In this document: positions 2,727 through 63,694 of the stretch, in pieces
Layout: each line of letters begins with the position of its first letter
How positions within the stretch are numbered: the stretch's first letter is position 1
From: a virus
Length of the DNA: 64,000 nucleotides
Direction: 5' to 3' (one strand)
IMG/VR virus record: IMGVR_UViG_3300035698_028218
Span: 7,745 to 71,744 of that record
Notes under the pieces: model-generated
What the model was told of the DNA's origin: nothing
What the model saw: only the letters and a program-made list of their open reading frames with translations
The model's database searches: none
Translations under genes and position numbers: made by a program

Positions 2727-5093
2727 CTAACTAGCTGCACTTATTTGATTTTTTTGATCTGATTGTTGTATTTCCAAACGTCTAGCTAAATTAAGACCCT
2801 CACTAACCTTGTCACTATCTAGGTACATATCAACTTGTAAATTCATTGCAACTTCCTTATTTGAGAACTCAACTTTTAGTGGTTTAGATAAAATACCTGC
2901 TAGTGATGAGAATGAAGATGAATTAGTTTGTAGTCTAGAAATATCTTGTAATAATCCTCTTATTTCAGTTAAATTAGATGTGTCACTTTTTAGTAAAGTA
3001 TTTAATGGTTCTAATCCTGCACCTAGTTTTTGTATACCATCTGCATGTTTTGCCATTCCAGATATTGATTTATTCAATGTAATTGCACCTATTATACCCA
3101 TTGGGTTACCCATCATTAATGATGCTGCACCAATTCCTGCCATACCAACTCCAATTCCATTTATATTTACATTATCTAATTTACTAAGACCCTCAGCCAT
3201 TTTACCTATACCAGAAGCAGCAATACCAATTCCAGCACCAATCATAGTAACTGTACCGCCTAACGCAAGCATACCCACTGCACCAGCTGTTGCTGCTGCA
3301 CCAACAATTGGTAGTATTACCATTAAATTTCCTAATCCTAATCTAATTTCTTTTAGTGCTTTTAATTGTTTATCGTCAAGTCCTTTTAATGAATCGGAAA
3401 TCATAGAAATACCTTTCCCTGCCATCATTATTCCTGCACCAGTACCAGCAGTAGCTAATCCAATTCCAGCACCGCCTTTTAGCATTCCACCTCCACCTTT
3501 TAACATACCAGCACCACCACTACCGCCCAGAGCCATGCTACCTAATTTAAATGCTCCTTTTAGAAGACCACCAGCACCAATTAGTGCAACTGCAACGGCA
3601 CCTGCCATTTTCCATGATGTATTTAAATCGTCTACCCATTTAACACCTCTTTCAACAACGGGTCTCATTTTTTCAAGAACTTTATTTACACCAGTTAATA
3701 CTGGTAGTAATGTTGCTTTTAGTGATTGTATTGTATTTTGAAATGCATCTTCAAAGTTTTGTGCTGCTTTTGCTCTTTCTTCAAGTGATTTACTTTGTGA
3801 TACTACCGCATCAAGTTGTGACTTAGTTAATGTGCCTATGTCTTTAGTAACACCAGCAATTGAGAACTTACCTGTTTTATTATTAAGCCTTGCCATACCC
3901 TCAACAGCTTCTTTTTGTTCCCTACTGAACCCACTATTAATCATTTCTGATCTCATTTTCTGAATTAGAGTCATTTGCTTTGCTTGATTTACAAGCTGAC
4001 CAGTATCCATACCCAATGCTTGACCAACTCTTTCAAGTCTATCAATATCAACTGCCGAAACAAATGTTTCAAAAGTACCATCCGCATTTTTCTTAAAGGT
4101 TGCAACACCTTTAGTCATCTCATTAATTTTTTGAGTGAACTTAGCTGGATCGTTACGTGATAAGAAAAGTAATTCAAATGGATCACTTTTTGCAAACTCA
4201 CCACCCATAACTTGTAATTGTGCTGCTAGGTCTACAGCACCTTCTAATGTTCTTGCTCTACCAGCAGAATCTATCATAGACCCCATATCGATCTTAAACT
4301 TCTCACTATATGCTGCCATTTTAGCAAAATCTTTGACACCATTTCTGAATGTCATTGTTTGTAGTCTATTAAAGTTAGCTGATATATTTTTGAATACCTT
4401 AGTCGCATTCACGCCCATTCTGTCGGTGGTATTTAATATTTGTTCTATGTTCGATGCAGAATTTTCTGCATTTAGTCCCATTAATTCAAACTGACCCGCA
4501 AGTTTAGCTGCGTTTTCTATACCTAATCCAGTCCCAGCACCAATTAATGCTATTGATTTATATGATTCTGCTGAAAGTAATGCTGCTCTACCCGTCTCGT
4601 CTGCGTAAATTTTTGCTGCAACAGCTAATTCTCCAGTACTTATACCTAACTGTGCTGAAAATGATGCTGCTCCCTCGATTGATGATCTTACTATTTGAGA
4701 TTTGGCTGCGGTAATACCAAATTCAAGGCTGATTGACTTAATCGCCTTATCTGATTGCATTAAATAATCTCTGGTTGATTTGGTTTTATTCCAAATTTTA
4801 CCTAAAACATCAGATATATTTCTTTCGGTTTTAAGTTTTTTATCTAAATTTCTTAGTTCTTCTCTTTGGGTCTTTAATATATCTCTTTTTTTAATTAACT
4901 CACTCCCAGTAAGACTTAAACTTTCCTTCTCTGATTCAACAAGTATTTTTTGTAGTAACCCTCTTTTTTCTTCAATTAGGTATTGTTTTTTCCTAGTATT
5001 GAGAGATAATGACATCGCATCTAACTCTTTTTTATTAAGTTCTAGACTTTCTCGTAAATTTTTAATTCTATTTTCCGAATTATCTTCTGCCAT
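2727..5093 (-). CDS. Tail tape measure protein
   Basis: 788 aa, helical N-terminus, Ala/Gly-rich hydrophobic C-terminal half, directly downstream of a frameshifting chaperone pair. Confidence 0.85.
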   Translation of the reverse strand: MAEDNSENRIKNLRESLELNKKELDAMSLSLNTRKKQYLIEEKRGLLQKILVESEKESLSLTGSELIKKRDILKTQREELRNLDKKLKTERNISDVLGKIWNKTKSTRDYLMQSDKAIKSISLEFGITAAKSQIVRSSIEGAASFSAQLGISTGELAVAAKIYADETGRAALLSAESYKSIALIGAGTGLGIENAAKLAGQFELMGLNAENSASNIEQILNTTDRMGVNATKVFKNISANFNRLQTMTFRNGVKDFAKMAAYSEKFKIDMGSMIDSAGRARTLEGAVDLAAQLQVMGGEFAKSDPFELLFLSRNDPAKFTQKINEMTKGVATFKKNADGTFETFVSAVDIDRLERVGQALGMDTGQLVNQAKQMTLIQKMRSEMINSGFSREQKEAVEGMARLNNKTGKFSIAGVTKDIGTLTKSQLDAVVSQSKSLEERAKAAQNFEDAFQNTIQSLKATLLPVLTGVNKVLEKMRPVVERGVKWVDDLNTSWKMAGAVAVALIGAGGLLKGAFKLGSMALGGSGGAGMLKGGGGMLKGGAGIGLATAGTGAGIMMAGKGISMISDSLKGLDDKQLKALKEIRLGLGNLMVILPIVGAAATAGAVGMLALGGTVTMIGAGIGIAASGIGKMAEGLSKLDNVNINGIGVGMAGIGAASLMMGNPMGIIGAITLNKSISGMAKHADGIQKLGAGLEPLNTLLKSDTSNLTEIRGLLQDISRLQTNSSSFSSLAGILSKPLKVEFSNKEVAMNLQVDMYLDSDKVSEGLNLARRLEIQQSDQKNQISAAS

Positions 5094-6354: not shown

Positions 6355-7119
6355 ATGACAAGAATAAGTAATAGAAAATCAATAAAAGGTGATATTCATT
6401 CAGAATATGATGAATATAGGGAAGGTGTAATACAAAGAGAAAAAAGCGATTTATCTAAAATTCTTAAAAGAGACTTAAAAATAAGAGCAAAAAACAATAG
6501 TCAAATTGACTTAATAAAAAGTGTTAAACACAATGATGTGACAATATGTGCTGGTAAAGCTGGAACAGGGAAAACCTTTGTTGTATTGGCAACTGCTTTG
6601 GAATTATTAAGAAAAAGACAAAGCCCATACACAAAAATTTATCTAGTGAAATCCGTCACAACATTAAAGGGTGAAGAAATTGGTTACTTAAAGGGTGGTT
6701 TAGACGAGAAGATCGAACCATTTATGATGAGCTATAAATTTAATTTAAATAAGTTACTAGATAGTGTTGATGTTAGTGCATTATTATCTAGTAAAGTAAT
6801 AGAGCCATTTCCATTGGCATTTGCAAGGGGTGTTAGTTTAGATAATTGCATTGTTATTGTTGATGAAATGCAAAATGTTAGTTTAACAAACGCAAGAACT
6901 ATTTTAACTAGAATGGGTGAAAATTGTAAGATGATATTAATGGGAGATACAAATCAGGTTGATATGAAAAACGCTGGTGATAGTTCATTAAATAGTCTTT
7001 TAAATATGTTTAGTAATTCAGAGGGTATTGGAGTTGTTGAAATGGACTCTAAATATGTTAATGTTAGAAATCCATTAATTGATATTATTGAAAGGGGGTT
7101 TGATAACTATGGAAAATAA
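6355..7119 (+). CDS. phoH: PhoH-like ATPase
   Basis: GKAGTGKT Walker A, IGYLKGGL.EK, FARGVSL, IVDEMQN, LTRMGEN, GDTNQVD. Confidence 0.95.
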   Translation: MTRISNRKSIKGDIHSEYDEYREGVIQREKSDLSKILKRDLKIRAKNNSQIDLIKSVKHNDVTICAGKAGTGKTFVVLATALELLRKRQSPYTKIYLVKSVTTLKGEEIGYLKGGLDEKIEPFMMSYKFNLNKLLDSVDVSALLSSKVIEPFPLAFARGVSLDNCIVIVDEMQNVSLTNARTILTRMGENCKMILMGDTNQVDMKNAGDSSLNSLLNMFSNSEGIGVVEMDSKYVNVRNPLIDIIERGFDNYGK

Positions 7120-7791: not shown

Positions 7792-8530
7792 ACCTAGAAT
7801 TGCAATAGATATAAATGAAGTACTTAGAGGTACTTTTCAGTCCTTTTTGAGACATTATGAATCAGAATATGGACTTATTGATGATGATGAAATTGTTTAT
7901 AGTTACGACTATTTCAAAGACTATGAATGGGCAGAAGAAGAACTAATTGAGGAAATTCTAAGAGAAGACCTAGATGAAACTATTTCACCTAATGAATATG
8001 TAATTGATGAGGCGACAGGGAGAGCACCTGTAGATGCAATTGCATTTAGAAAAGAGGTAACTCTTTTATCACCAGAGGATGTTTTTAATGAATTTATGTA
8101 CGTTGAATATGTATACCAAATTTTTGGAGGTGCCCCTGAAGCATATAGAAATCTATCTGCTGATTTTCAGATTTTTCATAAAAAATATAGTGAAGATTAC
8201 GATCTAATTTTAGTGTCTAAGGACAATCCAATTGTAGTACCCTCGACATTATTCTTTTTATCTAAGATTAAAACAAAGATTTCTACAATTAAGTTTGTAA
8301 AAAGTTCGGAGGAAATGTGGAACTCGTGTGATATTTTAATCACTACCGATCCAGATATTGTTAACTCTGAAGTACCAAAAGATAAATCACTAGTTAAATT
8401 TTCTAGACCCTATAATTCAGAATCTGAGGTTGATGGAGATTTCTTACAGCTTTGTGATTTGGTCGATGAAGAGAATAAAAAAGAAAAAGTAAATAAATTT
8501 AAAAAAATATTAAAAAAATATGGAAAATAA
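7784..8530 (+). CDS. HAD-fold 5'(3')-deoxyribonucleotidase-like protein
   Basis: N-terminal RIAIDINEVLR, C-terminal DILIT..RPYN; second Asp of DxD is Asn, so activity is uncertain. Confidence 0.55.
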   Translation: MSKPRIAIDINEVLRGTFQSFLRHYESEYGLIDDDEIVYSYDYFKDYEWAEEELIEEILREDLDETISPNEYVIDEATGRAPVDAIAFRKEVTLLSPEDVFNEFMYVEYVYQIFGGAPEAYRNLSADFQIFHKKYSEDYDLILVSKDNPIVVPSTLFFLSKIKTKISTIKFVKSSEEMWNSCDILITTDPDIVNSEVPKDKSLVKFSRPYNSESEVDGDFLQLCDLVDEENKKEKVNKFKKILKKYGK

Positions 8531-56755: not shown

Positions 56756-56805
56756 GTGAACTACCCACCCACACTACGTGATGAGTGGGCTTTACGCTCA
56801 CTTTT
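56756..56805 (-). mobile_element. Single-hairpin IS200/IS605 miniature (PATE-like) element
   Basis: GTGAACTACCCACC shared with the IS end at 62493; minus strand TTAC|AAAAGTGAGCGT-AAAG-hairpin-TAGTTCAC. Confidence 0.7.
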
Positions 56806-56827
56806 GTAAATAAAAATTAATGCAGTA

Positions 56828-57151
56828 ATGAGTATATATAGAGTAAAGTTAATTGGTGAAGAAGGGGACATTGAACCAGTCATCAATAAACATAGTATTG
56901 TAATTCAAACTAAATGGAATGGTCTTAAAATGATGGATCACGCTACGTTTGATTTGTGGAATAGACTATTTATATTTCCAGATAACGAAAAGGCAGAATA
57001 CTTTTCTGAGAACTTTAAACATGACATGAACGACTTCAGAGAGGGTATGATGAAGGATGATTATGTTTTTCATATTGTTAATTTTAAATATCCACAAAAA
57101 GAAGAGCTATATGCTGATCAAATGCGAATGACTAAGGATTATAAATATTAA
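56828..57151 (+). CDS. Hypothetical protein
   Basis: 107 aa ORF. Confidence 0.65.
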   Translation: MSIYRVKLIGEEGDIEPVINKHSIVIQTKWNGLKMMDHATFDLWNRLFIFPDNEKAEYFSENFKHDMNDFREGMMKDDYVFHIVNFKYPQKEELYADQMRMTKDYKY

Positions 57152-57244
57152 ATGTGATATGAGTGAACAAAGACGTTATTGGTCATTTGATGAATGTTGT
57201 CAACATATGGTTTGTGGTAGATAATTAGAATTAATATTAACTAG

Positions 57245-57330
57245 ATGGTCTGGTGGGACTCGAACCCACAAGAGCGATGTGCTCATCAGAATCAAAACCT
57301 GACGTGTTTAGCCAATTCCACCACAGACCA
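57245..57330 (-). tRNA. tRNA-Gln(UUG) with long variable arm
   Basis: Acceptor TGGTCTG/CAGACCA; anticodon arm TCAGG-TTTTGAT-TCTGA; variable arm GAGC-ACATC-GCTC; T arm GTGGG-TTCGAGT-CCCAC. Confidence 0.85.
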
Positions 57331-57456
57331 TTGTTTAAATAAAAGTTGTTCCTACAAAAGTTCTCTACTACTAAGGCAAGTCCTCCATTTGGGGTTCCGT
57401 TAACTACTTTATGAGTTTATAACCCCTGACGGAACAAGCAAGGTAACTATTATTTT

Positions 57457-57537
57457 GGCAGGCAGTTGGACTTGAACCAACGTAACTAGTATACGCCAAC
57501 AACCAACCCCCAGCTTCGGGAGAATTTGTTTACCTGC
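57457..57537 (-). ncRNA. tRNA-like RNA without a clear anticodon arm
   Basis: Acceptor GCAGGTA/TGCCTGC and T arm GTTGG-TTCAAGT-CCAAC; atypical interior. Confidence 0.6.
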
Positions 57538-57542
57538 ATTTG

Positions 57543-57602
57543 GGTATAAGACGAGGAACGAACTCGCATCTACAGAGACCACAACTCTAAGCTACTTACA
57601 CC
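57543..57602 (-). tRNA. D-armless tRNA-His(GUG)-like RNA
   Basis: GGTGTAAG-TAGCT-TAGAG-TTGTGGT-CTCTG-TAGAT-GCGAG-TTCGTTC-CTCGT-CTTATACC (60 nt, G-1:C73). Confidence 0.65.
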
Positions 57603-57611
57603 ATATATTTG

Positions 57612-57684
57612 ATGCTCTATTCAGAATCGAACTGAATTTTTTCGGATCAAAACCGAACGTAATAAACCACTATACGATAGAGCA
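57612..57684 (-). tRNA. tRNA-Gln(UUG)
   Basis: TGCTCTA/TAGAGCA; TTCGG-TTTTGAT-CCGAA; TTCAG-TTCGATT-CTGAA. Confidence 0.9.
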
Positions 57685-57714
57685 ATATAAATAAGTCTCT
57701 CATATAGAGACATC

Positions 57715-57790
57715 TGGGGTGTCAACGGGGATCGAACCCTGTTCTCTCGATTCACAGTCAAGCGTAATAACCTGTTATACTTTTGACACC
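57715..57790 (-). tRNA. tRNA-His(GUG)
   Basis: G-1; GTGTCAA/TTGACAC, C73 and encoded CCA; CTTGA-CTGTGAA-TCGAG. Confidence 0.9.
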
Positions 57791-57832
57791 ATTTTAAAAA
57801 AATATTATCACATTGTGTTTCCACTAACTTTG

Positions 57833-57905
57833 TCGGGTATGCCAGATTTGAACTGTATCTCGTAGACCCAAACTACGCATGTTACCTGATTACACCACAT
57901 CCCCG
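57833..57905 (-). tRNA. tRNA-Pro(UGG), apparent 8/4 fold
   Basis: CGGGGATG/CATACCCG; CGTAG-TTTGGGT-CTACG; short T stem ACAG-TTCAAAT-CTGG. Confidence 0.8.
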
Positions 57906-57919
57906 ATATTTTCTAAAAT

Positions 57920-57937
57920 CAATATTTCAAATAACTT
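57920..57937 (-). promoter_or_regulatory. boxA-like antitermination motif
   Basis: AAGTTATTTGAAATATTG, 15/18 identical to 60819-60836. Confidence 0.55.
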
Positions 57938-57942
57938 TATTG

Positions 57943-58016
57943 TCTAAGTGGTGAGAGTCGAACTCACAATAACCCTCCTTCCAAGGGAGGTAACCATGCC
58001 AGTGGATCACACCTAG
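57943..58016 (-). tRNA. tRNA-Pro(UGG)
   Basis: CTAGGTG/CACTTAG A73; CCTCC-CTTGGAA-GGAGG; GTGAG-TTCGACT-CTCAC. Confidence 0.85.
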
Positions 58017-58027
58017 TTTTTGGACAT

Positions 58028-58057
58028 AAAAAAACCCATTCATTACTGAACGGGTTT
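58028..58057 (-). terminator. Attenuator terminator of array 1
   Basis: AAACCCGTTCA-GTAA-TGAATGGG-T7, between leader ORF and first tRNA. Confidence 0.9.
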
Positions 58058-58086
58058 AGCTATATTTTATTAAGTTTTATTCCTTA

Positions 58087-58173
58087 TTAAATATGCATAG
58101 TTTCCCCGTTCAACATTCTTTGCGGATGCTGTGCTTGGGGTTGATGTGCGATATTTAATAAAACTGTTTTCAT
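58087..58173 (-). CDS. His/Gln/Pro-rich leader peptide (28 aa) of array 1
   Basis: MKTVLLNIAHQPQAQHPQRMLNGETMHI*; contains TGAACGGG complementary to terminator 5' arm. Confidence 0.85.
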   Translation of the reverse strand: MKTVLLNIAHQPQAQHPQRMLNGETMHI

Positions 58174-58194
58174 TACTTTAATTTTCTTCTTTTG

Positions 58195-58225
58195 CAAACC
58201 TACAACAATATTTGAGGTTTCCAAA
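58195..58225 (-). promoter_or_regulatory. Bacteroidetes sigma70 promoter of array 1
   Basis: TTTG-N19-TAGGTTTG, exact consensus. Confidence 0.85.
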
Positions 58226-58321
58226 ACTTTTTTTTACAAAAAGCAATAATTTTTACTACTTCACCAATAAATACGTTAAAAAAACTAATTTGTTTAAAAA
58301 AGTTTAGTATTTATTTTTAAA

Positions 58322-58699
58322 ATGGATGATTTAGATTTTTGGAACATAGATAAAGAAAGAAAAGAGAGAATTCCTTTAGACATTATTAATACTAAAGAAT
58401 TTCAAGTAAAATTTATCGTTGATCTATTAAATGATTCCCCCTCTATTGTTAGTCGTGAATCTATTGAGACCCATAGACAAAACGACATATACACCAGTGA
58501 TATGACCATACTAAAGGTTTTTAATATTGAGTATTCATATGAAAAAATATTAATTCCAATTGATATTGTTGTGGTGACTGACGAAGGTAAAAATGATTTT
58601 AATCTAAAGTTTTCTACCATAGAAAATAAAGACATTGATTTTGGCTGGATAGATAAAAATATTGCGTTAGAAAAAAAAGTTTTGAATTCTCTTATATAG
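58322..58699 (+). CDS. Hypothetical protein
   Basis: 125 aa; GTATTTAT at 58307. Confidence 0.65.
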   Translation: MDDLDFWNIDKERKERIPLDIINTKEFQVKFIVDLLNDSPSIVSRESIETHRQNDIYTSDMTILKVFNIEYSYEKILIPIDIVVVTDEGKNDFNLKFSTIENKDIDFGWIDKNIALEKKVLNSLI

Positions 58700-58715
58700 T
58701 TACTATCTTTACTAG

Positions 58716-58973
58716 ATGAATAATGATAATTATGAATTGGTGAATGTGGGGGTTAGTAAAAATTCAAATTCATTCAATGTAACTACGAATGGTGGTGCAT
58801 TATTTAGTATTAAATCAAAGTATGATTTACATCTTCAATGGAAACCCAAGCCTAATATTACTACTTTTGAATTAGCACAATCAATCCCATATATTTTTAT
58901 GGGAGAAGTTGAATCTTCATCAATAGACCAAAATGAAAAATTTTGGAGAAACTTTAATATAACACCAAGATGA
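58716..58973 (+). CDS. Hypothetical protein
   Basis: 85 aa, WKPKPNITTFELA. Confidence 0.65.
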   Translation: MNNDNYELVNVGVSKNSNSFNVTTNGGALFSIKSKYDLHLQWKPKPNITTFELAQSIPYIFMGEVESSSIDQNEKFWRNFNITPR

Positions 58974-59377
58974 AGATTTTTTTAGACGACTATAGAATCC
59001 CCTTAGATGCGTGGATGTATATGAAAGAAAAACAATATCAAGATAGGGATTGGGTGATTGTTAAGAATTACGATGAATTTGTAAGACTACTAAATATGAC
59101 TAAACCAGAAAATATCGAGAGAATTTCTTTTGATCATGATTTAGCACCTGAACACTATGCCCCAAAAGAACATTGGATTAATTATGATGCTTGGGAAGCT
59201 ACACAAGACTTTGAATTTAAAACAGGTTTAGATTGTTGTGATTACTTCATAGAGTATATGAAAAAAAACAATATTAAAACCCTGCCTAAATATTCTTGTC
59301 ATTCAAAAAATATTGGAAGAAGAATAAGAATTTTACATCAATTAACTCACTATAGAAATGGGAGCACCGAAATTTAA
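58970..59377 (+). CDS. Cyclic-phosphate-processing receiver-domain protein
   Basis: KIFLDDYRIP, WVIVKNYDEF, ISFDHDL, KTGLDCC, HSKN. Confidence 0.8.
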   Translation: MKIFLDDYRIPLDAWMYMKEKQYQDRDWVIVKNYDEFVRLLNMTKPENIERISFDHDLAPEHYAPKEHWINYDAWEATQDFEFKTGLDCCDYFIEYMKKNNIKTLPKYSCHSKNIGRRIRILHQLTHYRNGSTEI

Positions 59378-59636
59378 ATTAAAAGAAAATATATTAACTA
59401 TCACATATGACTTTAATGAGGTTTATTTGGAAACATTATTACTTGTTAAGTCAAATAATGGTATTGTGGAGTTTATTAATAGAGAAGAATTCACATCTGA
59501 CATCGATCATTTAGAATTAAGTTGGGTAATATGTGATGAGCTTGTTAGTATGGGTCTTTTATTTGAAGACTTAGAAGCTATGAATGTCACATATGAATTA
59601 ACCAAAGAAAGTGAAGACTTAATAAATAGTATATAA
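59358..59636 (+). CDS. Hypothetical protein
   Basis: 92 aa ORF. Confidence 0.6.
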   Translation: MGAPKFKLKENILTITYDFNEVYLETLLLVKSNNGIVEFINREEFTSDIDHLELSWVICDELVSMGLLFEDLEAMNVTYELTKESEDLINSI

Positions 59637-59862
59637 GGAGCAGGTATATGGTACAACGAGAAAGAACCATATGAAGGCACCACAGACATATTAAGGAAGG
59701 TAGGTGCCATTTGTATACAAATGGGAGAGCAATACTCAATGACAGAAAGAAAGTTCCTTGAGAAGCAAATATTAGGGTGAAAAAAATTTAAAAACCTAAT
59801 CCTCTGTAAATCAAAGTGTTGGGTTTTTATTAGACTTTTTTTTAAAAAAATAAAAACATTTA

Positions 59863-59893
59863 CTTGTTCTTTGCGTATTTAGTTGTAGGTTTG
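59863..59893 (+). promoter_or_regulatory. Bacteroidetes sigma70 promoter of array 2
   Basis: CTTG-N19-TAGGTTTG; shares GTTGTAGGTTTGCA and AGAAAATTAAA with array 1 leader region. Confidence 0.85.
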
Positions 59894-59924
59894 CATAAGC
59901 AAATACAAAAAACAGAAAATTAAA

Positions 59925-60053
59925 ATGAAAAATTTATTCGACATCTTATTAAACACCTTAGAAGCGTTAGCTAACGTGGTGCTAGATGCAGTCCTTATGG
60001 ATGATGCTGAATGGGATAGGAATGGGTTTTCTAAAATAGATGATGTGAGTTAA
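59925..60053 (+). CDS. Ala/Leu/Asp/Glu/Val/Trp-rich leader peptide (42 aa) of array 2
   Basis: MKNLFDILLNTLEALANVVLDAVLMDDAEWDRNGFSKIDDVS*; GGGTTTTCTA (60024-60033) complementary to TAGAAAACCT (60073-60082). Confidence 0.85.
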   Translation: MKNLFDILLNTLEALANVVLDAVLMDDAEWDRNGFSKIDDVS

Positions 60054-60075
60054 AAACTTAAATAATCGAAACTAG

Positions 60076-60107
60076 AAAACCTGATCCGAAAGAATCAGGT
60101 TTTTTTT
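60076..60107 (+). terminator. Attenuator terminator of array 2
   Basis: AAAACCTGATCC-GAAA-GAATCAGG-T8. Confidence 0.9.
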
Positions 60108-60126
60108 GTTTATAGGGGTTTAAGTT

Positions 60127-60441
60127 ATGTCACAAAGAAAAAAACAAATAAGAGAGAAATTCAGAAATGATGTCTTCTCTAGAGATAATCACAGATGTAA
60201 GGTTTGTGAAGAAGATAGTGAAAAATTAGATGCTCATCATATCACCGATAGAAATGAGATGCCGAATGGAGGTTATGTAAGTGAGAATGGAATCTCATTA
60301 TGTGAACCATGTCACGAAAAAGCAGAAGTTTGGCATTCAAGTTTAAAAGATGATTTTGTAGATGGGTATCAACCAAATGATTTATATGTGTTAATAAATA
60401 GTAATTATGATTTAGCACATAAAAAATCAGAGCAATTATAA
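60127..60441 (+). CDS. HNH endonuclease
   Basis: VFSRDNHRCKVC..LDAHHI..ENGISLCEPCHEKAE. Confidence 0.9.
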   Translation: MSQRKKQIREKFRNDVFSRDNHRCKVCEEDSEKLDAHHITDRNEMPNGGYVSENGISLCEPCHEKAEVWHSSLKDDFVDGYQPNDLYVLINSNYDLAHKKSEQL

Positions 60442-60555
60442 TTGAGAATGTACTGTGGTGACATAGTACCTCCAACCAGTAAAGAAGTACCACTTACGGA
60501 GTTACCTAAGTTCGCAGGGGAGTAAGGAAGTTGGTCTGGGTGATATGTCTCAATT
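60440..60555 (+). ncRNA. Unidentified structured RNA
   Basis: Closing stem AATTGAGA/TCTCAATT, hairpin GTACTGTG-GTGA-CATAGTAC, CCAAC/GTTGG, CTTAC/GTAAG. Confidence 0.45.
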
Positions 60556-60559
60556 AAAT

Positions 60560-60634
60560 GGGGGTGTAGCAAGTGTTGGCTATTGCAACTGCTTTGCAAG
60601 CAGTAGATCGTGGGTTCAATTCCCATCACTTCCA
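60560..60634 (+). tRNA. tRNA-Ala(UGC)
   Basis: GGGGGTG/CACTTCC with G3:U70, A73; ACTGC-TTTGCAA-GCAGT. Confidence 0.9.
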
Positions 60635-60729
60635 CTGGCTTGGGTTATATGAATCCAAGTAAAAATAGAAAGTTGGGATTATGGTTTGTCTGTACCACCA
60701 GTACCGTTATAAAGGTAACAGACGCAAAC

Positions 60730-60809
60730 GCCTCTGTGGTTAATGCAAATTGGTACAGCTACTGGTTTTAGAAACCAGACCCTTGTAGGTTCGAATCCTA
60801 TTAGAGGTA
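60730..60809 (+). tRNA. tRNA-Leu(UAG) lacking long variable arm
   Basis: GCCTCTG/TAGAGGT A73; CTGGT-TTTAGAA-ACCAG; GTAGG-TTCGAAT-CCTAT; enlarged D region. Confidence 0.8.
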
Positions 60810-60818
60810 CAAAGAAAT

Positions 60819-60836
60819 AAGTTCATTGAAATGTTG
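60819..60836 (+). promoter_or_regulatory. boxA-like antitermination motif
   Basis: AAGTTCATTGAAATGTTG, resembles Bacteroidetes rRNA-operon boxA as recalled. Confidence 0.55.
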
Positions 60837-60860
60837 GTAATAAAGTAATTAAAATACGAA

Positions 60861-61041
60861 ATCTTGAAGCGAAAGGCAAAAGAAACATTGAGTGGGTTAG
60901 ATGCCCAACAGGTTCTAGATATTGAAAACTGGTCAGTAAATTAAATAAGTAGGTGTATTAGTAGCGAACGCTCATTAACCAAAAGAGAGTAGGCACATTA
61001 AACCTTAATCCCTGCGCACTGGTTCGATTCCAGTCAAGATA
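60861..61041 (+). ncRNA. Long tRNA-like RNA (~180 nt)
   Basis: ATCTTG/CAAGAT closing stem stacked on T arm ACTGG-TTCGATT-CCAGT. Confidence 0.55.
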
Positions 61042-61062
61042 AAGTTAGAATGTGTAATTTTT

Positions 61063-61133
61063 GGAGGGCGTAGTGTAACGGTAGCATGTGTCACTGTCTA
61101 TGACAAGGAGGGGTTCGAATCCCACGCTTTCTG
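61063..61133 (+). tRNA. tRNA-Asp(GUC), apparent 8/4 fold
   Basis: GGAGGGCG/CGCTTTCT G73; TGTCA-CTGTCTA-TGACA; GGGG-TTCGAAT-CCCA. Confidence 0.8.
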
Positions 61134-61143
61134 CTAAATAAAT

Positions 61144-61217
61144 AAGAATGAGGTGTGTACTAGCATTTTCTGTATGTCACGCAGATAGGTTTAGGGTGAA
61201 ATTCCTTTACGTTCTTA
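61144..61217 (+). tRNA. Degenerate tRNA-Asp(GUC)-like RNA
   Basis: AAGAATG/CGTTCTT; TCTGT-ATGTCAC-GCAGA; non-canonical T loop. Confidence 0.55.
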
Positions 61218-61223
61218 TTAAAT

Positions 61224-61299
61224 GGAGTGTTGGTCTAGTTTGGCTTAGGATGTCCCCCTGTCACGGGGAAGGTCACGGGTTCAAATCCCGTACATTCCG
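61224..61299 (+). tRNA. tRNA-Asp(GUC)
   Basis: GGAGTGT/ACATTCC G73; TCCCC-CTGTCAC-GGGGA; ACGGG-TTCAAAT-CCCGT. Confidence 0.95.
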
Positions 61300-61378
61300 C
61301 AATACTACTCCCTCTAGCGAAAACTAGTGAAATAATATAACTACATATATCACTGGTTATATTATGTGGGAGAATTTT

Positions 61379-61499
61379 GGAAGTATTCCTTTGTAAAGTA
61401 TGAGCTTAAAGCAGAATACGGGATAAATCAAGGCGTTGATTAAATTCTAGGAGTAACGAGGTGAAAATGCATTTGTTGGTTCGAGTCCAACTACTTCCG
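61379..61499 (+). ncRNA. Expanded tRNA-like RNA (121 nt)
   Basis: GGAAGTA/TACTTCC G; T arm GTTGG-TTCGAGT-CCAAC; interior hairpins including AATCAA-GGCG-TTGATT. Confidence 0.65.
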
Positions 61500-61511
61500 C
61501 AAATAATACAC

Positions 61512-61584
61512 ACATCATAGCATAACGGTATGCAGCAGGTCTCCAAAACCTCGCATAGACAGGGTTCGATTCCTTGATGGTGTG
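61512..61584 (+). tRNA. tRNA-Trp(CCA)
   Basis: ACATCAT/ATGGTGT G73; AGGT-CTCCAAA-ACCT; CAGGG-TTCGATT-CCTTG. Confidence 0.8.
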
Positions 61585-61585
61585 C

Positions 61586-61761
61586 AAAGGGGGTGTCTAA
61601 TGATAAAATCTTGTCATATAACAGGTATAGTCGTTTTTAGATATCAAAAACCATGTAGATTTGGCGTGGGATATGGGTCGGGGTAGGTACCCGAAATTGT
61701 TCTTCAAATCGGAACACTAGTAAGAAAACTCCATATATGAGTATATTTAAAACACCCTTTT
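61586..61761 (+). ncRNA. Unidentified multi-hairpin RNA
   Basis: Closing stem AAGGGGGTGT/ACACCCTTTT enclosing TCGGG/CCCGA, TGTTC/GAACA, ACTC/GAGT and GTTTTT/AAAAAC hairpins. Confidence 0.5.
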
Positions 61762-61765
61762 ATTT

Positions 61766-61837
61766 ATTCCGTTCGTCTAACGGCAAGGACATTGGATTTT
61801 CAATCCAGAAATAGGGGTTCGATTCCCCTACGGAGGA
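61766..61837 (+). tRNA. tRNA-Glu(UUC)
   Basis: TTGGA-TTTTCAA-TCCAG; AGGGG-TTCGATT-CCCCT; acceptor ATTCCGT/ACGGAGG. Confidence 0.9.
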
Positions 61838-61852
61838 CAATATTTAAATATT

Positions 61853-61923
61853 GGAGATTAACTCAACTGGAAGAGTGCTTCCGTTACATGGAAGAAGTTG
61901 TGGGTTCGAATCCCTCATCTCCA
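61853..61923 (+). tRNA. tRNA-Val(UAC)
   Basis: GGAGAT/ATCTCC A73; CTTCC-GTTACAT-GGAAG; GGG-TTCGAAT-CCC. Confidence 0.85.
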
Positions 61924-61929
61924 ACACAT

Positions 61930-62061
61930 GCTGTAATGAAGTAGAGTGAACTTAAATGGATTGTACAGTCCTATTAAGGAATCTATCAGTCTAAGAGACA
62001 ATTGGCGTTAGCTACTTATAATGTTGTACAATATTCTAGGGTTCAAGTCCCCAATATGGCA
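61930..62061 (+). ncRNA. Expanded tRNA-like RNA (~130 nt)
   Basis: GCTGTA/TATGGC A; T arm GGG-TTCAAGT-CCC; anticodon arm replaced by ATTGTACA/TGTACAAT stem with sub-hairpins. Confidence 0.55.
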
Positions 62062-62066
62062 CAAAT

Positions 62067-62138
62067 TCTCCGTTCGTCTAGGGGTCAGGACACTGGGTTT
62101 TCATCTCAGCAACAGGGGTTCGATTCCCCTACGGAGGA
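62067..62138 (+). tRNA. tRNA-Glu(UUC)
   Basis: TCTCCGT/ACGGAGG; CTGGG-TTTTCAT-CTCAG; 3' part identical to 61766 copy. Confidence 0.92.
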
Positions 62139-62148
62139 CAATATTTAA

Positions 62149-62460
62149 ACATCTATTAATTTTATTAAAAAACCTAATCACCAATATTCATATACCTTAA
62201 CACTATCTAGTGGTGAGGTAGGTGATGAAATTAGAGACTGGATTAATGGTCTTTTCACTAAGATAACATGTGGTGTGGATTCATTGGAAGAACTAATGGA
62301 TTTATATAACAAGGCGAAGGAAATGAATTTACCTGTCTCTTTAATTGAAGATGCTGGGTTAACGGAATTTAATGGTGAAAAAACAATCACCGCAATTGCA
62401 ATTGGTGCAGCGTCTTCCGAAAGAATAGATAAATTAACAAAAAATTTAAAGTTACTTTAA
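62149..62460 (+). pseudogene. 5'-truncated peptidyl-tRNA hydrolase Pth2
   Basis: Open frame ..WINGLFTKITCGVDSLEEL..LIEDAGLTEF..TITAIAIG..IDKLTKNLKLL; N-terminal VRxDL..GK..AQ..HA motif absent, stop at 62146. Confidence 0.75.
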
Positions 62461-62497
62461 CCAACGTTCAATAGAAATTGAAAAATTAGTTAGTGAA

Positions 62498-63694
62498 CTA
62501 CCCACCTACACCAAGAGGTGATAGATGGGCTTCGGGTTTCACAGGATGTGCATTGCTAACAATGTCTGATTTTTCCTCCACCTTTGTAATGGCAAGTTCC
62601 TCACCATATATTTTTAATCCTTCTTTTAGAATATTGATACTTGCGTTTAAATCACGGTCTAATTTATGACCATTTTTGCAAGTCCATTCTCTATCTGAAA
62701 GGTTTAAATCTTGATTTATATATCCACAAACATTGCAAGTTTTTGATGAAGGATACCAACGATTAATCTTAACAACAGTTTTATCGTTCCAATTTGCCTT
62801 GTATTCAACAAATCGAACAAATGTACCCCAACTTGCATCTGCAATATGTTTAGATAGTTTTCTATTTTTAATCATTCCTTTGATATTCAAATCTTCAAGG
62901 CAAATTATATCATAATTAGATACAATATCGTTACTCACTTTATGTAATACATCTTGTCTTGTGTTTGCTATTTTCTCGTGAATTAAGGCAACTTTACGTT
63001 TTTGTTTTTCAAACATATTGCTACCTTTTGTTTTACGAGAAAGATGTTGTTGTGCTTTTTTTAATTGTCTTTCATATCTTTTTGTGTATCTATTGTTTTT
63101 GTATTTAATTCCATCAGAAGTGATTGCAAAGTCTTTAATTCCTAAATCTATTCCTATCGTTTTACCAGTTTTTTTGCTTGGTACATATTCTTGTTCAGTT
63201 AAAATGGAAACGAAATATTTACCTGTTGGTGTTTTAGATATTGTGAATTTACCTATTTCACCTTTAACTTCTCTATGAATATTTACTTTAATACCACCCT
63301 TGAACTTTGGTGCATATATTCTATCATTAACTACTTTAGTATGTTGCGGTACTGTAAACGTATTCTTTTTACGTTTAGATTTAAACTTTGGAAACATTGC
63401 ATTTCCACGAAAGAAATTAACATAAGCAGTATCTAAACTTCTTAAAGCAAATTGCAAAGTTTGAGAATTAACTTCTTTTAACCAAATAGTATCTTCTTTT
63501 TTCTTTAGTTCAGTTAAAGTTTTTGCTTGTCCGTAATAATTATCAGTTTTTTTATCTGCTTGATATTGTTCCTTTCTTTCGTTTAAAAAGTGATTGTAAA
63601 TATATCTAACACAACCGAAGTGCTTATCCAATAAGGTTTTCTGTTCCTCATTAGGTAGTAATTCAAATTTATATGACCTATGTATATTCTTCAC
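62498..63694 (-). CDS. tnpB: TnpB RNA-guided endonuclease
   Basis: HFGCVRYIYN HTH, GIDLGIK (RuvC-I), LEDL (II), SSKTCNVCG zinc finger, DRDLNAS (III). Confidence 0.95.
   Translation of the reverse strand: MKNIHRSYKFELLPNEEQKTLLDKHFGCVRYIYNHFLNERKEQYQADKKTDNYYGQAKTLTELKKKEDTIWLKEVNSQTLQFALRSLDTAYVNFFRGNAMFPKFKSKRKKNTFTVPQHTKVVNDRIYAPKFKGGIKVNIHREVKGEIGKFTISKTPTGKYFVSILTEQEYVPSKKTGKTIGIDLGIKDFAITSDGIKYKNNRYTKRYERQLKKAQQHLSRKTKGSNMFEKQKRKVALIHEKIANTRQDVLHKVSNDIVSNYDIICLEDLNIKGMIKNRKLSKHIADASWGTFVRFVEYKANWNDKTVVKINRWYPSSKTCNVCGYINQDLNLSDREWTCKNGHKLDRDLNASINILKEGLKIYGEELAITKVEEKSDIVSNAHPVKPEAHLSPLGVGG

What the first reader, a model, noticed from the sequence alone, without database searches (positions are those of the whole stretch)
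57245..62138. Two phage tRNA arrays each gated by a codon-matched leader-peptide attenuator
Seen: both divergent arrays have the same layout: a Bacteroidetes promoter sharing GTTGTAGGTTTGCA, then AGAAAATTAAA-(GT)A-ATG, a short ORF, a GNRA-loop terminator with U tract, and tRNAs. In both, a segment late in the ORF (at Asn-Gly codons) is complementary to the terminator 5' arm. The clustered codons match the downstream tRNAs and differ between arrays: H/Q/P make up 8 of 9 codons before Pro, Pro, His, Gln, His-like and Gln tRNAs; A/L/D/E/V/W make up 18 of 20 codons before Ala, Leu, Asp x3, Trp, Glu x2 and Val tRNAs. Established: this is the geometry of trp/his/pheST-type ribosome-mediated attenuation. 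Inference: the phage senses shortage of specific charged tRNAs (anticodon-nuclease defence or starvation) and transcribes the matching replacement set. I know of no description of attenuators controlling phage tRNA arrays.
Basis: partly seen in the sequence, partly recalled or inferred. Interest (0 to 1): 0.97.

Follow-up and report, generated by a model that had tools for sequence, protein, structure and literature searches.

The report
Leader-peptide attenuators gating phage tRNA arrays
Each of this salt-lake phage's two tRNA gene clusters sits behind a tiny "test" gene, spelled mostly in the amino acids those tRNAs carry and wired to a switchable transcription stop, so the phage probably makes a tRNA set only when ribosomes run short of it.

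Summary
Both units have a Bacteroidetes-type promoter, a short ORF with a gene-like start context, an intrinsic terminator, and an in-ORF segment complementary to the terminator's 5' arm. Across all six frames of the 71.7-kb phage genome, the left leader holds the single best His/Gln/Pro 9-codon window (8/9). The right leader holds the only 20-codon window with at least 17 Ala/Leu/Asp/Glu/Val/Trp (18/20). In ribosome-masking folds the antiterminator is available only while the ribosome sits in the matched cluster. No other consensus promoter lies in the tRNA region, and the first left tRNA starts 11 nt after the U-tract.

The predicted covariation exists. I found the same layout with differently partitioned, matching leaders in Cellulophaga phage phi38:1 (3 units), Maribacter phage Panino (2), two IMG/VR phages, and more weakly in Caulobacter phage phiCbK (2 of 3 blocks).

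Corrections: two Asp tRNAs, not three; the "His-like" tRNA is weak; an HNH gene lies between the right terminator and its tRNAs. Nothing is shown experimentally, and the trigger (defence nuclease, starvation or host shut-off) is speculation.

Nine literature searches found no published account. Earlier unchecked AI notes of this scan report the same thing on other phage DNA.

The parts
58195..58224 (-). Left promoter: TTG, 19-nt spacer, TAnnTTTG-type -7 box (the -7 box and the shared 14-mer lie at 58193-58206)
58087..58173 (-). Left leader ORF, 28 codons plus stop. Its start context scores at the 97th percentile of all 2717 ATGs of the genome
58120..58146 (-). Left regulatory cluster, codons 10-18: 8 of 9 are His, Gln or Pro. 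This is the genome-wide six-frame maximum for that set
58105..58112 (-). Left antiterminator 5' strand (region 2), in the Leu-Asn-Gly codons. It is complementary over 8 bp to the terminator 5' arm. In the free RNA it is also paired with the cluster (a 1:2-type helix)
58028..58057 (-). Left intrinsic terminator: arms 58057-58047 and 58042-58032, 4-nt loop, U-run 58034-58028. The first tRNA starts 11 nt later
57244..58016 (-). Left tRNA array: Pro(UGG) 58016-57942, Pro(UGG) 57905-57832, His(GUG) 57790-57716, Gln(UUG) 57684-57611, weak His-like 57615-57542, Gln(UUG, 87 nt) 57330-57244
59864..59893 (+). Right promoter: TTG, 19-nt spacer, TAnnTTTG-type -7 box (shared 14-mer at 59882-59895)
59925..60053 (+). 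Right leader ORF, 42 codons plus stop. Its start context scores at the 98.5th percentile of all ATGs
59958..60017 (+). Right regulatory cluster, codons 12-31: 18 of 20 are Ala, Leu, Asp, Glu, Val or Trp. It is the only six-frame window of the genome with 17 or more
60019..60033 (+). Right antiterminator 5' strand (region 2), codons 32-37 (Arg-Asn-Gly-Phe-Ser-Lys)
60073..60107 (+). Right region 3 and intrinsic terminator: antiterminator partner 60073-60087, terminator arms 60077-60087 and 60092-60102, U-run 60100-60107
60127..60441 (+). HNH endonuclease ORF (104 aa) between the right terminator and the tRNAs. It would be gated together with them
60560..62139 (+). Right tRNA array: Ala(UGC) 60560-60635, Leu(UAG)/'Ser(ACU)' 60730-60810, Asp(GUC) 61063-61134, Asp(GUC) 61224-61300, Trp(CCA) 61512-61585, Glu(UUC) 61766-61838, Val(UAC) 61852-61925, Glu(UUC) 62067-62139

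Best explanation
Each tRNA array is the output of a multivalent leader-peptide (ribosome-mediated) transcription attenuator. Host RNA polymerase starts at a Bacteroidetes-type promoter and transcribes a short ORF that ribosomes load onto at once.

If the ribosome reads smoothly through the cluster of codons cognate to the array (His/Gln/Pro on the left; Ala/Leu/Asp/Glu/Val/Trp on the right), it covers or has passed the Asn-Gly segment (region 2) by the time the terminator is made. The terminator hairpin then forms and transcription stops before the tRNAs. If decoding of those codons is slow because the matching charged tRNAs are scarce, the ribosome stalls in the cluster. Region 2 stays free and pairs with the terminator's 5' arm, and the polymerase reads through into the tRNA genes. 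On the right it also reads through the HNH gene. The new tRNAs restore decoding and shut the switch again, so each tRNA set is under negative feedback.

Shown by computation on the sequence: the promoter motifs, the start context, the ORFs, the matched clusters, the terminators, the alternative pairing and its position, the absence of other consensus promoters, and the recurrence with matched composition in other phages.

Inferred: that the ORFs are translated, that stalling causes read-through, and what depletes the tRNAs.
For: (1) Composition. In a six-frame scan of the whole 71,744-bp genome (1697 stop-to-stop segments of 20 aa or more), the left leader is the unique maximum for His/Gln/Pro in 9 codons (8/9). 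The right leader is the only 20-codon window with 17 or more of its set (18/20). With window-free maximal-segment scoring they rank 1-2 and 2 (2-4 if Leu is left out of the right set or Ser is added to it). Against 200,000 random peptides drawn at proteome frequencies, p <= 5e-6 for the left and 1.5e-5 for the right. The right leader has 0 of 41 His/Gln/Pro residues.

(2) Codon level. The own array decodes 8/27 codons against 3/27 for the other array (left leader), and 16/41 against 0/41 (right leader), under strict wobble.

(3) Switch geometry. When the ribosome footprint is removed from the RNA, the terminator 5' arm is predicted to be paired upstream with probability 0.72-0.74 for A-site codons 10-17 of the left leader and 0.00-0.29 from codon 19 to the stop. 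For the right leader the values are 0.87-0.89 for codons 1-28 and 0.00-0.28 for codons 31-43. The three phi38:1 leaders show the same step at the end of their clusters. Duplexes were tested against 2000 shuffles (left 0/2000; right 3/2000 with a 6-nt flank).

(4) Dependence on read-through. Only these two TTG-N17-21-TAnnTTTG promoters lie in 57200-62200. tRNA-Pro starts 11 nt after the left U-run.

(5) Translatability. Both ATG contexts score like the 53 long-ORF starts, at the 97th and 98.5th percentile of 2717 ATGs.

(6) Covariation elsewhere. phi38:1 has three repeated promoter + sORF + terminator units. They stand before Lys-Ile-Gly-Met-Asp-Thr-Val-Arg-Ile, before Tyr-Ser-Ser-Asn-Trp-Phe-Cys, and before Pro-Glu-Gln-His-Leu-Arg. 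The matched runs score p = 0.008, <= 5e-6 and <= 5e-6. Panino has two units, and IMG/VR loci L089/L106 and L110 have one each. In phiCbK, 2 of 3 terminator-preceded blocks show enrichment at p = 0.0002-0.009.
Against: There is no expression, ribosome-profiling or termination data, and the host is unknown. No sequence variants or close relatives of this phage were found, so no compensatory changes could be scored for these two leaders.

The right set consists of common helix-forming residues. An acidic low-complexity protein outranks the right leader in the window-free test.

The right antiterminator is not significant if only the strict 10-nt terminator arm is used (713/2000).

At equilibrium the left terminator stays favoured (P >= 0.61) at every ribosome position, so the switch must be kinetic. 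The free right leader already favours the antiterminator (P(terminator) 0.45), which implies a leaky default.

The clusters hold non-cognate codons: Ala on the left, Asn and Met on the right. Two of the four Leu codons in the right cluster are UUA, which a UAG anticodon cannot read.

In the other phages the duplex test is weak for 2 of 7 leaders with the strict arm (Pan_B 905/2000, L089 329/2000). Two other phage arrays that I held (L018, L109) have no such leader. One phiCbK block has none matching (2/29).
Confidence: 0.75

Rival explanations
1. The leaders are translated and codon-matched, but the read-out is not classical antitermination. Leader translation might tune Rho-type polarity, transcript stability or tRNA processing, or might even work with the opposite sign (good decoding promotes array expression).
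For: The composition match demands only a translation-linked sensor, not a particular output. At equilibrium the left terminator is predicted to stay folded at all ribosome positions. In the free right leader the antiterminator is already competitive.
Against: In 5 of 5 leaders folded with a ribosome mask, the alternative pairing of the terminator 5' arm switches off exactly at the end of the matched cluster. The in-ORF complement of the terminator arm is more than chance (Fisher combined p = 5e-9 over 9 leaders with the 6-nt flank, 2.7e-6 with the strict arm). This is what antitermination by stalling requires, and other read-outs would have no use for it.
Confidence: 0.1
2. The short ORFs encode small proteins with their own function, or are not translated at all. 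The terminators are then ordinary leaky terminators, and the tRNAs are made constitutively by read-through. The composition match would be a by-product.
For: The right ORF is 42 codons long with a helix-like acidic and hydrophobic composition. Small conserved proteins do sit next to such arrays: a 48-49 aa protein is shared by phi38:1 and Panino. Some phage arrays lack leaders.
Against: The match is the genome-wide extreme for both sets. It recurs with different amino-acid sets in 7 further leaders. The peptides are not conserved in sequence between units, only in being cognate to their array (matrix). A terminator 11 nt before the first tRNA, with no other promoter, would be a wasteful constitutive design.
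Confidence: 0.07
3. The leader RNA senses tRNAs directly, T-box-like, by codon-anticodon contacts without a ribosome.
For: The logic is the same (tRNA status controls an antiterminator). The codon clusters offer many potential specifier triplets.
Against: No T-box or any other riboswitch family matched at E <= 1 in 56800-62800. The matched triplets are all in one reading frame that opens with a gene-like ATG context and closes with a stop. One leader would have to bind 3 to 8 different tRNAs. As I recall, T-boxes are not known in Bacteroidetes; this was not tested.
Confidence: 0.05
4. Chance: AT-rich intergenic DNA happens to contain ORFs, hairpins and matches.
For: The genome is 31% G+C, so A-rich start contexts are common.
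Against: The window-free scan still ranks the leaders 1-2 and 2 among all six-frame segments. The shuffle tests on pairing and the independent recurrence in other phages also argue against chance.
Confidence: 0.02

Closest known systems
Leader-peptide transcription attenuators of amino-acid operons (trpL, hisL, leuL, pheL; multivalent thrL and ilvGMEDA leader) - textbook knowledge, recalled
   Same: A promoter-proximal short ORF, a cluster of regulatory codons, an intrinsic terminator, and a mutually exclusive antiterminator whose upstream strand is freed by a ribosome stalled at the regulatory codons. The multivalent leaders mix several amino acids.
   Different: The regulated genes are tRNAs themselves, not biosynthetic enzymes, so the signal (decoding speed) is corrected directly. 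Three to eight amino acids are sampled per leader. The element is viral and present in several differently keyed copies per genome. Region 2 lies inside the ORF, 5-6 codons before the stop. There is no sequence similarity to the Rfam leader families (best hit Leu_leader, 22 bits against a gathering score of 50).
pheST (pheM leader) attenuator of E. coli - recalled
   Same: Leader-peptide attenuation applied to a gene of the translation apparatus and keyed to the cognate codons.
   Different: It controls a synthetase, uses one amino acid, and is chromosomal.
T-box riboswitches
   Same: Shortage of a specific charged tRNA converts a terminator into an antiterminator upstream of translation-related genes.
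   Different: T-boxes bind uncharged tRNA directly and have no leader ORF. No T-box match was found here.
Stress-induced long tRNA array (trn operon) of Anabaena PCC 7120 (PMC8421152, passages by term search; PMC10272220, abstract)
   Same: A spare tRNA gene array is kept silent and switched on when translation is impaired. Homing endonuclease and RNA-repair genes lie near such arrays.
   Different: Control is by a protein repressor, TrcR (abstract of PMC10272220). The 2021 paper contains none of the words attenuat-, leader or terminator.
tRNA arrays of Cellulophaga phage phi38:1 and Maribacter phage Panino (GenBank NC_021796, PP540027)
   Same: The same promoter type, a leader that often opens Met-Lys-Thr, a terminator with an in-ORF complement, and a leader composition cognate to the sub-array.
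   Different: The tRNAs are partitioned differently: Pro-Glu-Gln-His-Leu-Arg, Tyr-Ser-Asn-Trp-Phe-Cys, and Lys-Ile-Gly-Met-Asp-Thr-Val-Arg. The phages are otherwise unrelated: DNA matches to the window are confined to single tRNAs, covering at most 3% of the query. In the records these leaders are annotated as hypothetical proteins or not at all.

Membership tests
Ribosome-mediated (leader-peptide) transcription attenuator | Short ORF directly behind a promoter, with a credible translation start | tested here: met
   ORFs of 28 and 42 codons start 22-29 nt after the -7 box. Their start-context scores are at the 97th and 98.5th percentile of 2717 ATGs and within the range of 53 long-ORF starts.
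Ribosome-mediated (leader-peptide) transcription attenuator | Cluster of codons cognate to the regulated product | tested here: met
   8/9 His/Gln/Pro and 18/20 Ala/Leu/Asp/Glu/Val/Trp, both genome-wide six-frame extremes. p <= 5e-6 and 1.5e-5. Codon-level own array against the other array: 8 vs 3 and 16 vs 0.
Ribosome-mediated (leader-peptide) transcription attenuator | Intrinsic terminator between the leader and the regulated genes, with no promoter in between | tested here: met
   Hairpins of -13.3 and -9.4 kcal/mol followed by 7 and 8 U. No other consensus Bacteroidetes-type promoter in 57200-62200. Non-consensus or phage-specific promoters cannot be excluded.
Ribosome-mediated (leader-peptide) transcription attenuator | Antiterminator that excludes the terminator and is free only when the ribosome stalls at the regulatory codons | tested here: met
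   Caveat: the right duplex is significant only when 6 nt 5' of the stem are included (3/2000, against 713/2000 for the strict arm).
Ribosome-mediated (leader-peptide) transcription attenuator | Protector (1:2) pairing that sequesters region 2 in untranslated RNA | tested here: inconclusive
   The left leader's minimum-energy fold pairs the cluster with region 2 and gives P(terminator) 0.94 in free RNA. In the right leader the free RNA has the antiterminator competitive, with P(terminator) 0.45.
Ribosome-mediated (leader-peptide) transcription attenuator | Read-through rises when the cognate charged tRNA is scarce | not testable with these tools
   No RNA run holds this DNA. Needs Term-seq or reporters.
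Rfam leader families (Leu_leader and the like) | Covariance-model score above the gathering threshold | tested here: not met
   Best hit is Leu_leader at 58028-58091 (-), 22 bits against a gathering score of 50, E = 0.4.
T-box riboswitch | Match to the T-box covariance model (specifier loop and T-box bulge) | tested here: not met
   No T-box hit at E <= 1 in 56800-62800 on either strand.
Bacteroidetes housekeeping-sigma promoter | -33 TTG and -7 TAnnTTTG about 19 nt apart (consensus recalled from the literature) | tested here: met
   Both units have a 19-nt spacer. There are 14 such sites in 64 kb, and only these two in the tRNA region.

The most novel reading that the evidence does not exclude
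The leaders are decoding-capacity sensors that make each tRNA array an inducible replacement kit. When a host defence (an anticodon nuclease or another tRNA-depleting system) or phage-driven host shut-off removes a particular group of tRNAs, only the array that replaces that group is switched on, and it shuts off again once decoding recovers. The grouping of tRNAs into arrays would then reflect which tRNAs are lost together. The device would be a widespread viral regulatory principle, present in phages of at least Bacteroidota and Alphaproteobacteria. The neighbouring cyclic-phosphate RNA-repair-associated receiver domain and the peptidyl-tRNA hydrolase remnant would belong to the same translation-rescue toolkit.
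Probability: 0.3. Interest if true: 0.95.

Novelty: new variant of a known kind. Interest (0 to 1): 0.85.

Why it matters
Phage tRNA genes are usually discussed as constitutive codon-usage helpers or, more recently, as counter-measures to tRNA-cleaving defences. A built-in attenuator keyed to the very codons an array decodes would mean that phages measure the host's decoding capacity codon group by codon group, and supply tRNAs on demand with negative feedback.

That extends a textbook bacterial mechanism to a new class of regulated genes (tRNAs) and to viruses. It gives a direct read-out of which tRNAs matter during infection. It explains many mis-annotated 'hypothetical proteins' next to phage tRNAs.

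It can also be tested at once, because the same layout exists in cultured pairs: Cellulophaga baltica with phi38:1, Maribacter with Panino, and Caulobacter with phiCbK. The leaders could serve as compact sensors of the availability of specific tRNAs.

Tried and rejected
Close relatives of this phage.
- blastn of 57200-62200 against 50,697 phage records matched 28 records, all only over single tRNAs (at most 3% of the query covered).
- The search for related loci in IMG/VR with the 135-aa receiver-domain protein gave 7 loci at 32-37% identity, and 0 of 7 had tRNAs. Of 5 whole records behind them, 1 (G002) had a tRNA array, and that array has no leader.
- The 125-aa and 228-aa neighbouring proteins found nothing.
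- The portal protein found 4 short contigs at 46-60% identity and only distant GenBank phages at 36.6% identity or less.
- The shared promoter/start motif gave 0 matches in IMG/VR.

Sequencing runs. 14 DNA runs, all labelled salt lake metagenome, hold the stretch; no RNA holder is listed. Contigs of 4 runs laid on 57200-62200 showed no differences in either leader. The only differences (60588-60667) come from other organisms' tRNA-Ala contigs. So no natural variants were available for a covariation test.

Cross-matrix of ORF against terminator-arm duplex energies. It was not diagnostic, because the G/C-rich arms of different phages resemble each other. In that call the left leader was also one base out of register; this was corrected.

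Relaxed 'U34 reads all four' decoding. It is over-inclusive for split codon boxes, so I rely on the strict table.

Generic screen of all other held loci for terminator + sORF + tRNA run: 0 further cases. The positive controls were recovered.

Literature. Nine full-text searches found no description of leader-peptide attenuation of tRNA genes in phages or bacteria. I read passages of PMC8421152 and PMC5335546 by term search and the abstract of PMC10272220. Supplements were closed and not seen; the supplementary datasets of PMC5335546 (phi38:1 RNA-seq) could bear on read-through. Subscription-only papers are not covered.

Not used: structure prediction, fold search, complex prediction, the metagenome contigs and genome-contig scans, and the protein-atlas search. 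No query promised more than random hits or a bearing on the question.

Full report
What is there. The window is the last 64 kb of a 71,744-bp virus record with 30.8% G+C. It is a tailed phage with a sheath, a T4-like portal and a large terminase. It is held, with identical sequence, by DNA runs labelled salt lake metagenome. All of its tRNA genes lie in 57244-62139, in two divergent groups. ARAGORN and Rfam together give the following:
- On the minus strand: Pro, Pro, His, Gln and Gln, plus a weak His-like call at a lowered threshold.
- On the plus strand: Ala, a long tRNA read as Ser(ACU) by default but as Leu(UAG) in ARAGORN's mitochondrial mode, Asp, Asp, Trp, Glu, Val and Glu.

The two leaders. 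Both copies sit in a TTG / 19-nt spacer / TAnnTTTG arrangement, the Bacteroidetes promoter consensus as I recall it. Only 14 such arrangements exist in 64 kb, and only these two lie in the tRNA region. Each promoter is followed by:
- an A-rich stretch;
- an ATG whose context scores like the starts of the phage's 53 long ORFs (97th and 98.5th percentile of all 2717 ATGs);
- an ORF of 28 or 42 codons;
- an intrinsic terminator 24-29 nt after the stop, with a 4-nt GNRA loop and 7-8 U.

On the left, tRNA-Pro starts 11 nt after the U-run. On the right, a 104-aa HNH endonuclease ORF comes first and tRNA-Ala follows at 60560.

Is the codon match more than chance? I translated the whole genome in six frames (1697 stop-to-stop segments of 20 aa or more). 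The left leader holds the only 9-codon window with 8 His/Gln/Pro. The right leader holds the only 20-codon window with 17 or more Ala/Leu/Asp/Glu/Val/Trp; it has 18. The left leader ranks 1 or 2. The right leader ranks 2, behind an acidic low-complexity protein. Against 200,000 random peptides at proteome frequencies the scores give p <= 5e-6 and 1.5e-5. The right leader has no His, Gln or Pro at all. Under strict wobble the own array reads 8/27 (left) and 16/41 (right) leader codons, against 3/27 and 0/41 for the other array.

Is the switch geometry there?
- Left leader. ORF nt 58112-58105 (Leu-Asn-Gly) is a perfect 8-bp complement of the terminator's 5' arm (-13.8 kcal/mol; 0 of 2000 shuffled ORFs do as well). 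In the free RNA the same segment pairs with the His/Gln/Pro cluster. This is the classical 1:2 / 2:3 / 3:4 topology.
- Right leader. ORF nt 60019-60033 pairs over 14 bp with 60073-60087, which overlaps the terminator arm (-16.2 kcal/mol, 3 of 2000). With the strict stem alone the test is not significant (713 of 2000).
- Ribosome masking. I folded the RNA left 3' of a ribosome footprint for every A-site codon, up to the terminator loop. On the left, the 5' arm is paired upstream with probability 0.72-0.74 while the ribosome is at codons 10-17, 0.52 at codon 18, and 0.00-0.29 from codon 19 to the stop. On the right, it is 0.87-0.89 for codons 1-28 and 0.00-0.28 for codons 31-43. So the antiterminator is available precisely while a ribosome is held in the matched cluster, and is lost once the ribosome moves on.
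- Weak points. At equilibrium the left terminator remains favoured at every ribosome position, so the decision must be kinetic. The untranslated right leader already favours read-through.

Does leader composition follow array content elsewhere? No close relative of this phage could be found. However, a tRNA-level hit led me to Cellulophaga phage phi38:1.
- phi38:1. A repeated promoter occurs three times, each followed by a 25-29-codon ORF, a strong terminator and a sub-array. The first unit precedes Lys-Ile-Gly-Met-Asp-Thr-Val-Arg-Ile, and 18 of its 24 leader residues are cognate. The second precedes Tyr-Ser-Ser-Asn-Trp-Phe-Cys, and its leader has a run of 16 of 16 cognate residues. The third precedes Pro-Glu-Gln-His-Leu-Arg, with a run of 13 of 13. 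The scan-statistic p values are 0.008, <= 5e-6 and <= 5e-6.
- Maribacter phage Panino has two such units. A degenerate promoter/start pattern pulled two more from IMG/VR: L089/L106 before Tyr-Ser-Asn-Trp-Phe-Cys, and L110 before Pro-Glu-Gln-His-Leu-Leu-Arg.
- In 7 of 7 leaders from the three phages with more than one unit, the own array decodes more leader codons than any other array of the same phage.
- The window phage partitions its tRNAs differently. Glu, Leu and Trp sit with Ala/Asp/Val, and Pro/His/Gln stand alone. Its leaders follow that partition.
- The in-ORF complement of the terminator arm is present in most leaders (Fisher combined p = 5e-9 over 9 leaders with the flank, 2.7e-6 with the strict arm). 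It is individually weak in some.
- Outside Bacteroidota, phiCbK has annotated terminators before three tRNA blocks. Two are preceded by sORFs enriched in the block's amino acids (p = 0.0002-0.009). The third has no matching ATG-ORF.
- Two other arrays that I held (L018, L109) have no leader, so the device is common but not universal.

Mechanism. The best reading is a multivalent leader-peptide attenuator. Slow decoding of the cluster codons holds the ribosome upstream of region 2. Region 2 then captures the terminator's 5' arm, and the polymerase runs into the tRNA genes. Fast decoding lets the ribosome cover or pass region 2, and the terminator forms. Because the products are the very tRNAs that are tested, the loop is self-limiting. 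What lowers the cognate tRNA pool is not addressed by any result here; it could be a defence nuclease, amino-acid starvation, host shut-off or simply high phage demand. Suggestive context only: a cyclic-phosphate-processing receiver domain protein lies between the arrays, a peptidyl-tRNA hydrolase remnant lies right after the last tRNA, and an HNH gene lies inside the right unit.

Comparison with what is known. Functionally this is the trp/his/ilv type of attenuation, and all four sequence-level defining features are met. The experimental one cannot be tested here. It is not a member of any Rfam leader family, nor a T-box. The nearest published case of a regulated spare tRNA array that I found is the Anabaena trn operon, which is induced by translational stress through the repressor TrcR, not by attenuation. 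Nine full-text searches found no account of leader-peptide control of tRNA genes. The phi38:1 transcriptome paper discusses only host tRNA genes in the passages I saw.

Earlier notes of this scan. Unchecked AI notes report the same device in other phages. I read them only after finding phi38:1 and Panino. I used them as leads for the Anabaena papers and for phiCbK, and I do not count them as support.

Verdict. It is a new variant of a known mechanism in a new place, of high interest, and directly testable in cultured phage-host pairs.

Noticed in passing
window 62149-62460 (+): The open frame matches only the C-terminal half of peptidyl-tRNA hydrolase PTH2 (profile positions 57-115 of 115). 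It opens directly after the last tRNA-Glu and has no ATG before a GTG at 62275. It looks like a 5'-truncated or oddly started gene.
   Followed up: partly
window 58970-59377 (+): A 135-aa protein with a cyclic-phosphate-processing receiver domain (cREC_REC, E = 2.4e-15) lies between the two arrays. This domain is associated with RNA-repair systems (association recalled). Seven IMG/VR homologues at 32-37% identity have no tRNAs nearby.
   Followed up: partly
window 62498-63694 (-): A 398-aa IS605 OrfB/TnpB-like protein (OrfB_IS605, Cas12f1-like TNB and HTH domains) lies just beyond the right array, near the contig end.
   Followed up: no
window 60127-60441 (+): An HNH endonuclease gene is inserted between the right leader terminator and tRNA-Ala. 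Homing endonucleases beside tRNA arrays are noted for T4 SegB and for Anabaena (passage of PMC8421152).
   Followed up: no
window 57331-57541, 60811-61062, 61301-61511, 61586-61765, 61926-62066: Unusually long gaps (140-250 nt) separate the tRNAs. By eye, some show acceptor-like and T-arm-like pieces flanking 50-100 nt of extra sequence. At a lowered threshold ARAGORN calls a His-like tRNA (57542-57615) and an intron-bearing tRNA with anticodon UUA (61930-62062). No Rfam family matches. They may be degenerate or interrupted tRNAs, or other structured RNAs.
   Followed up: partly
window 57244-57330 (-) and 60730-60810 (+): Two atypical tRNAs. One is an 87-nt tRNA-Gln(UUG) with a long extra arm. 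The other is an 81-nt tRNA whose anticodon is read as ACU (Ser) or UAG (Leu) depending on the fold chosen.
   Followed up: partly
L023 (phi38:1, NC_021796) 4959-5066, 6989-7108, 7869-8000: Several annotated 'hypothetical proteins' in the record are either the leader ORF with a wrong upstream start (gp066) or overlap tRNA genes that are not annotated (gp068, gp071). ARAGORN at a lowered threshold finds 23 tRNAs where the record annotates 15 in this stretch.
   Followed up: partly
L023 4768-4914 and L028 8187-8336: A conserved 48-49-aa hydrophobic small protein lies directly upstream of one leader unit in both phi38:1 and Panino. Its function is unknown.
   Followed up: no
L148 (phiCbK) 1321-1367: An annotated terminator before the Glu-Asp block has no ATG-started sORF enriched in Glu or Asp (2/29). 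Other start codons were not examined.
   Followed up: no
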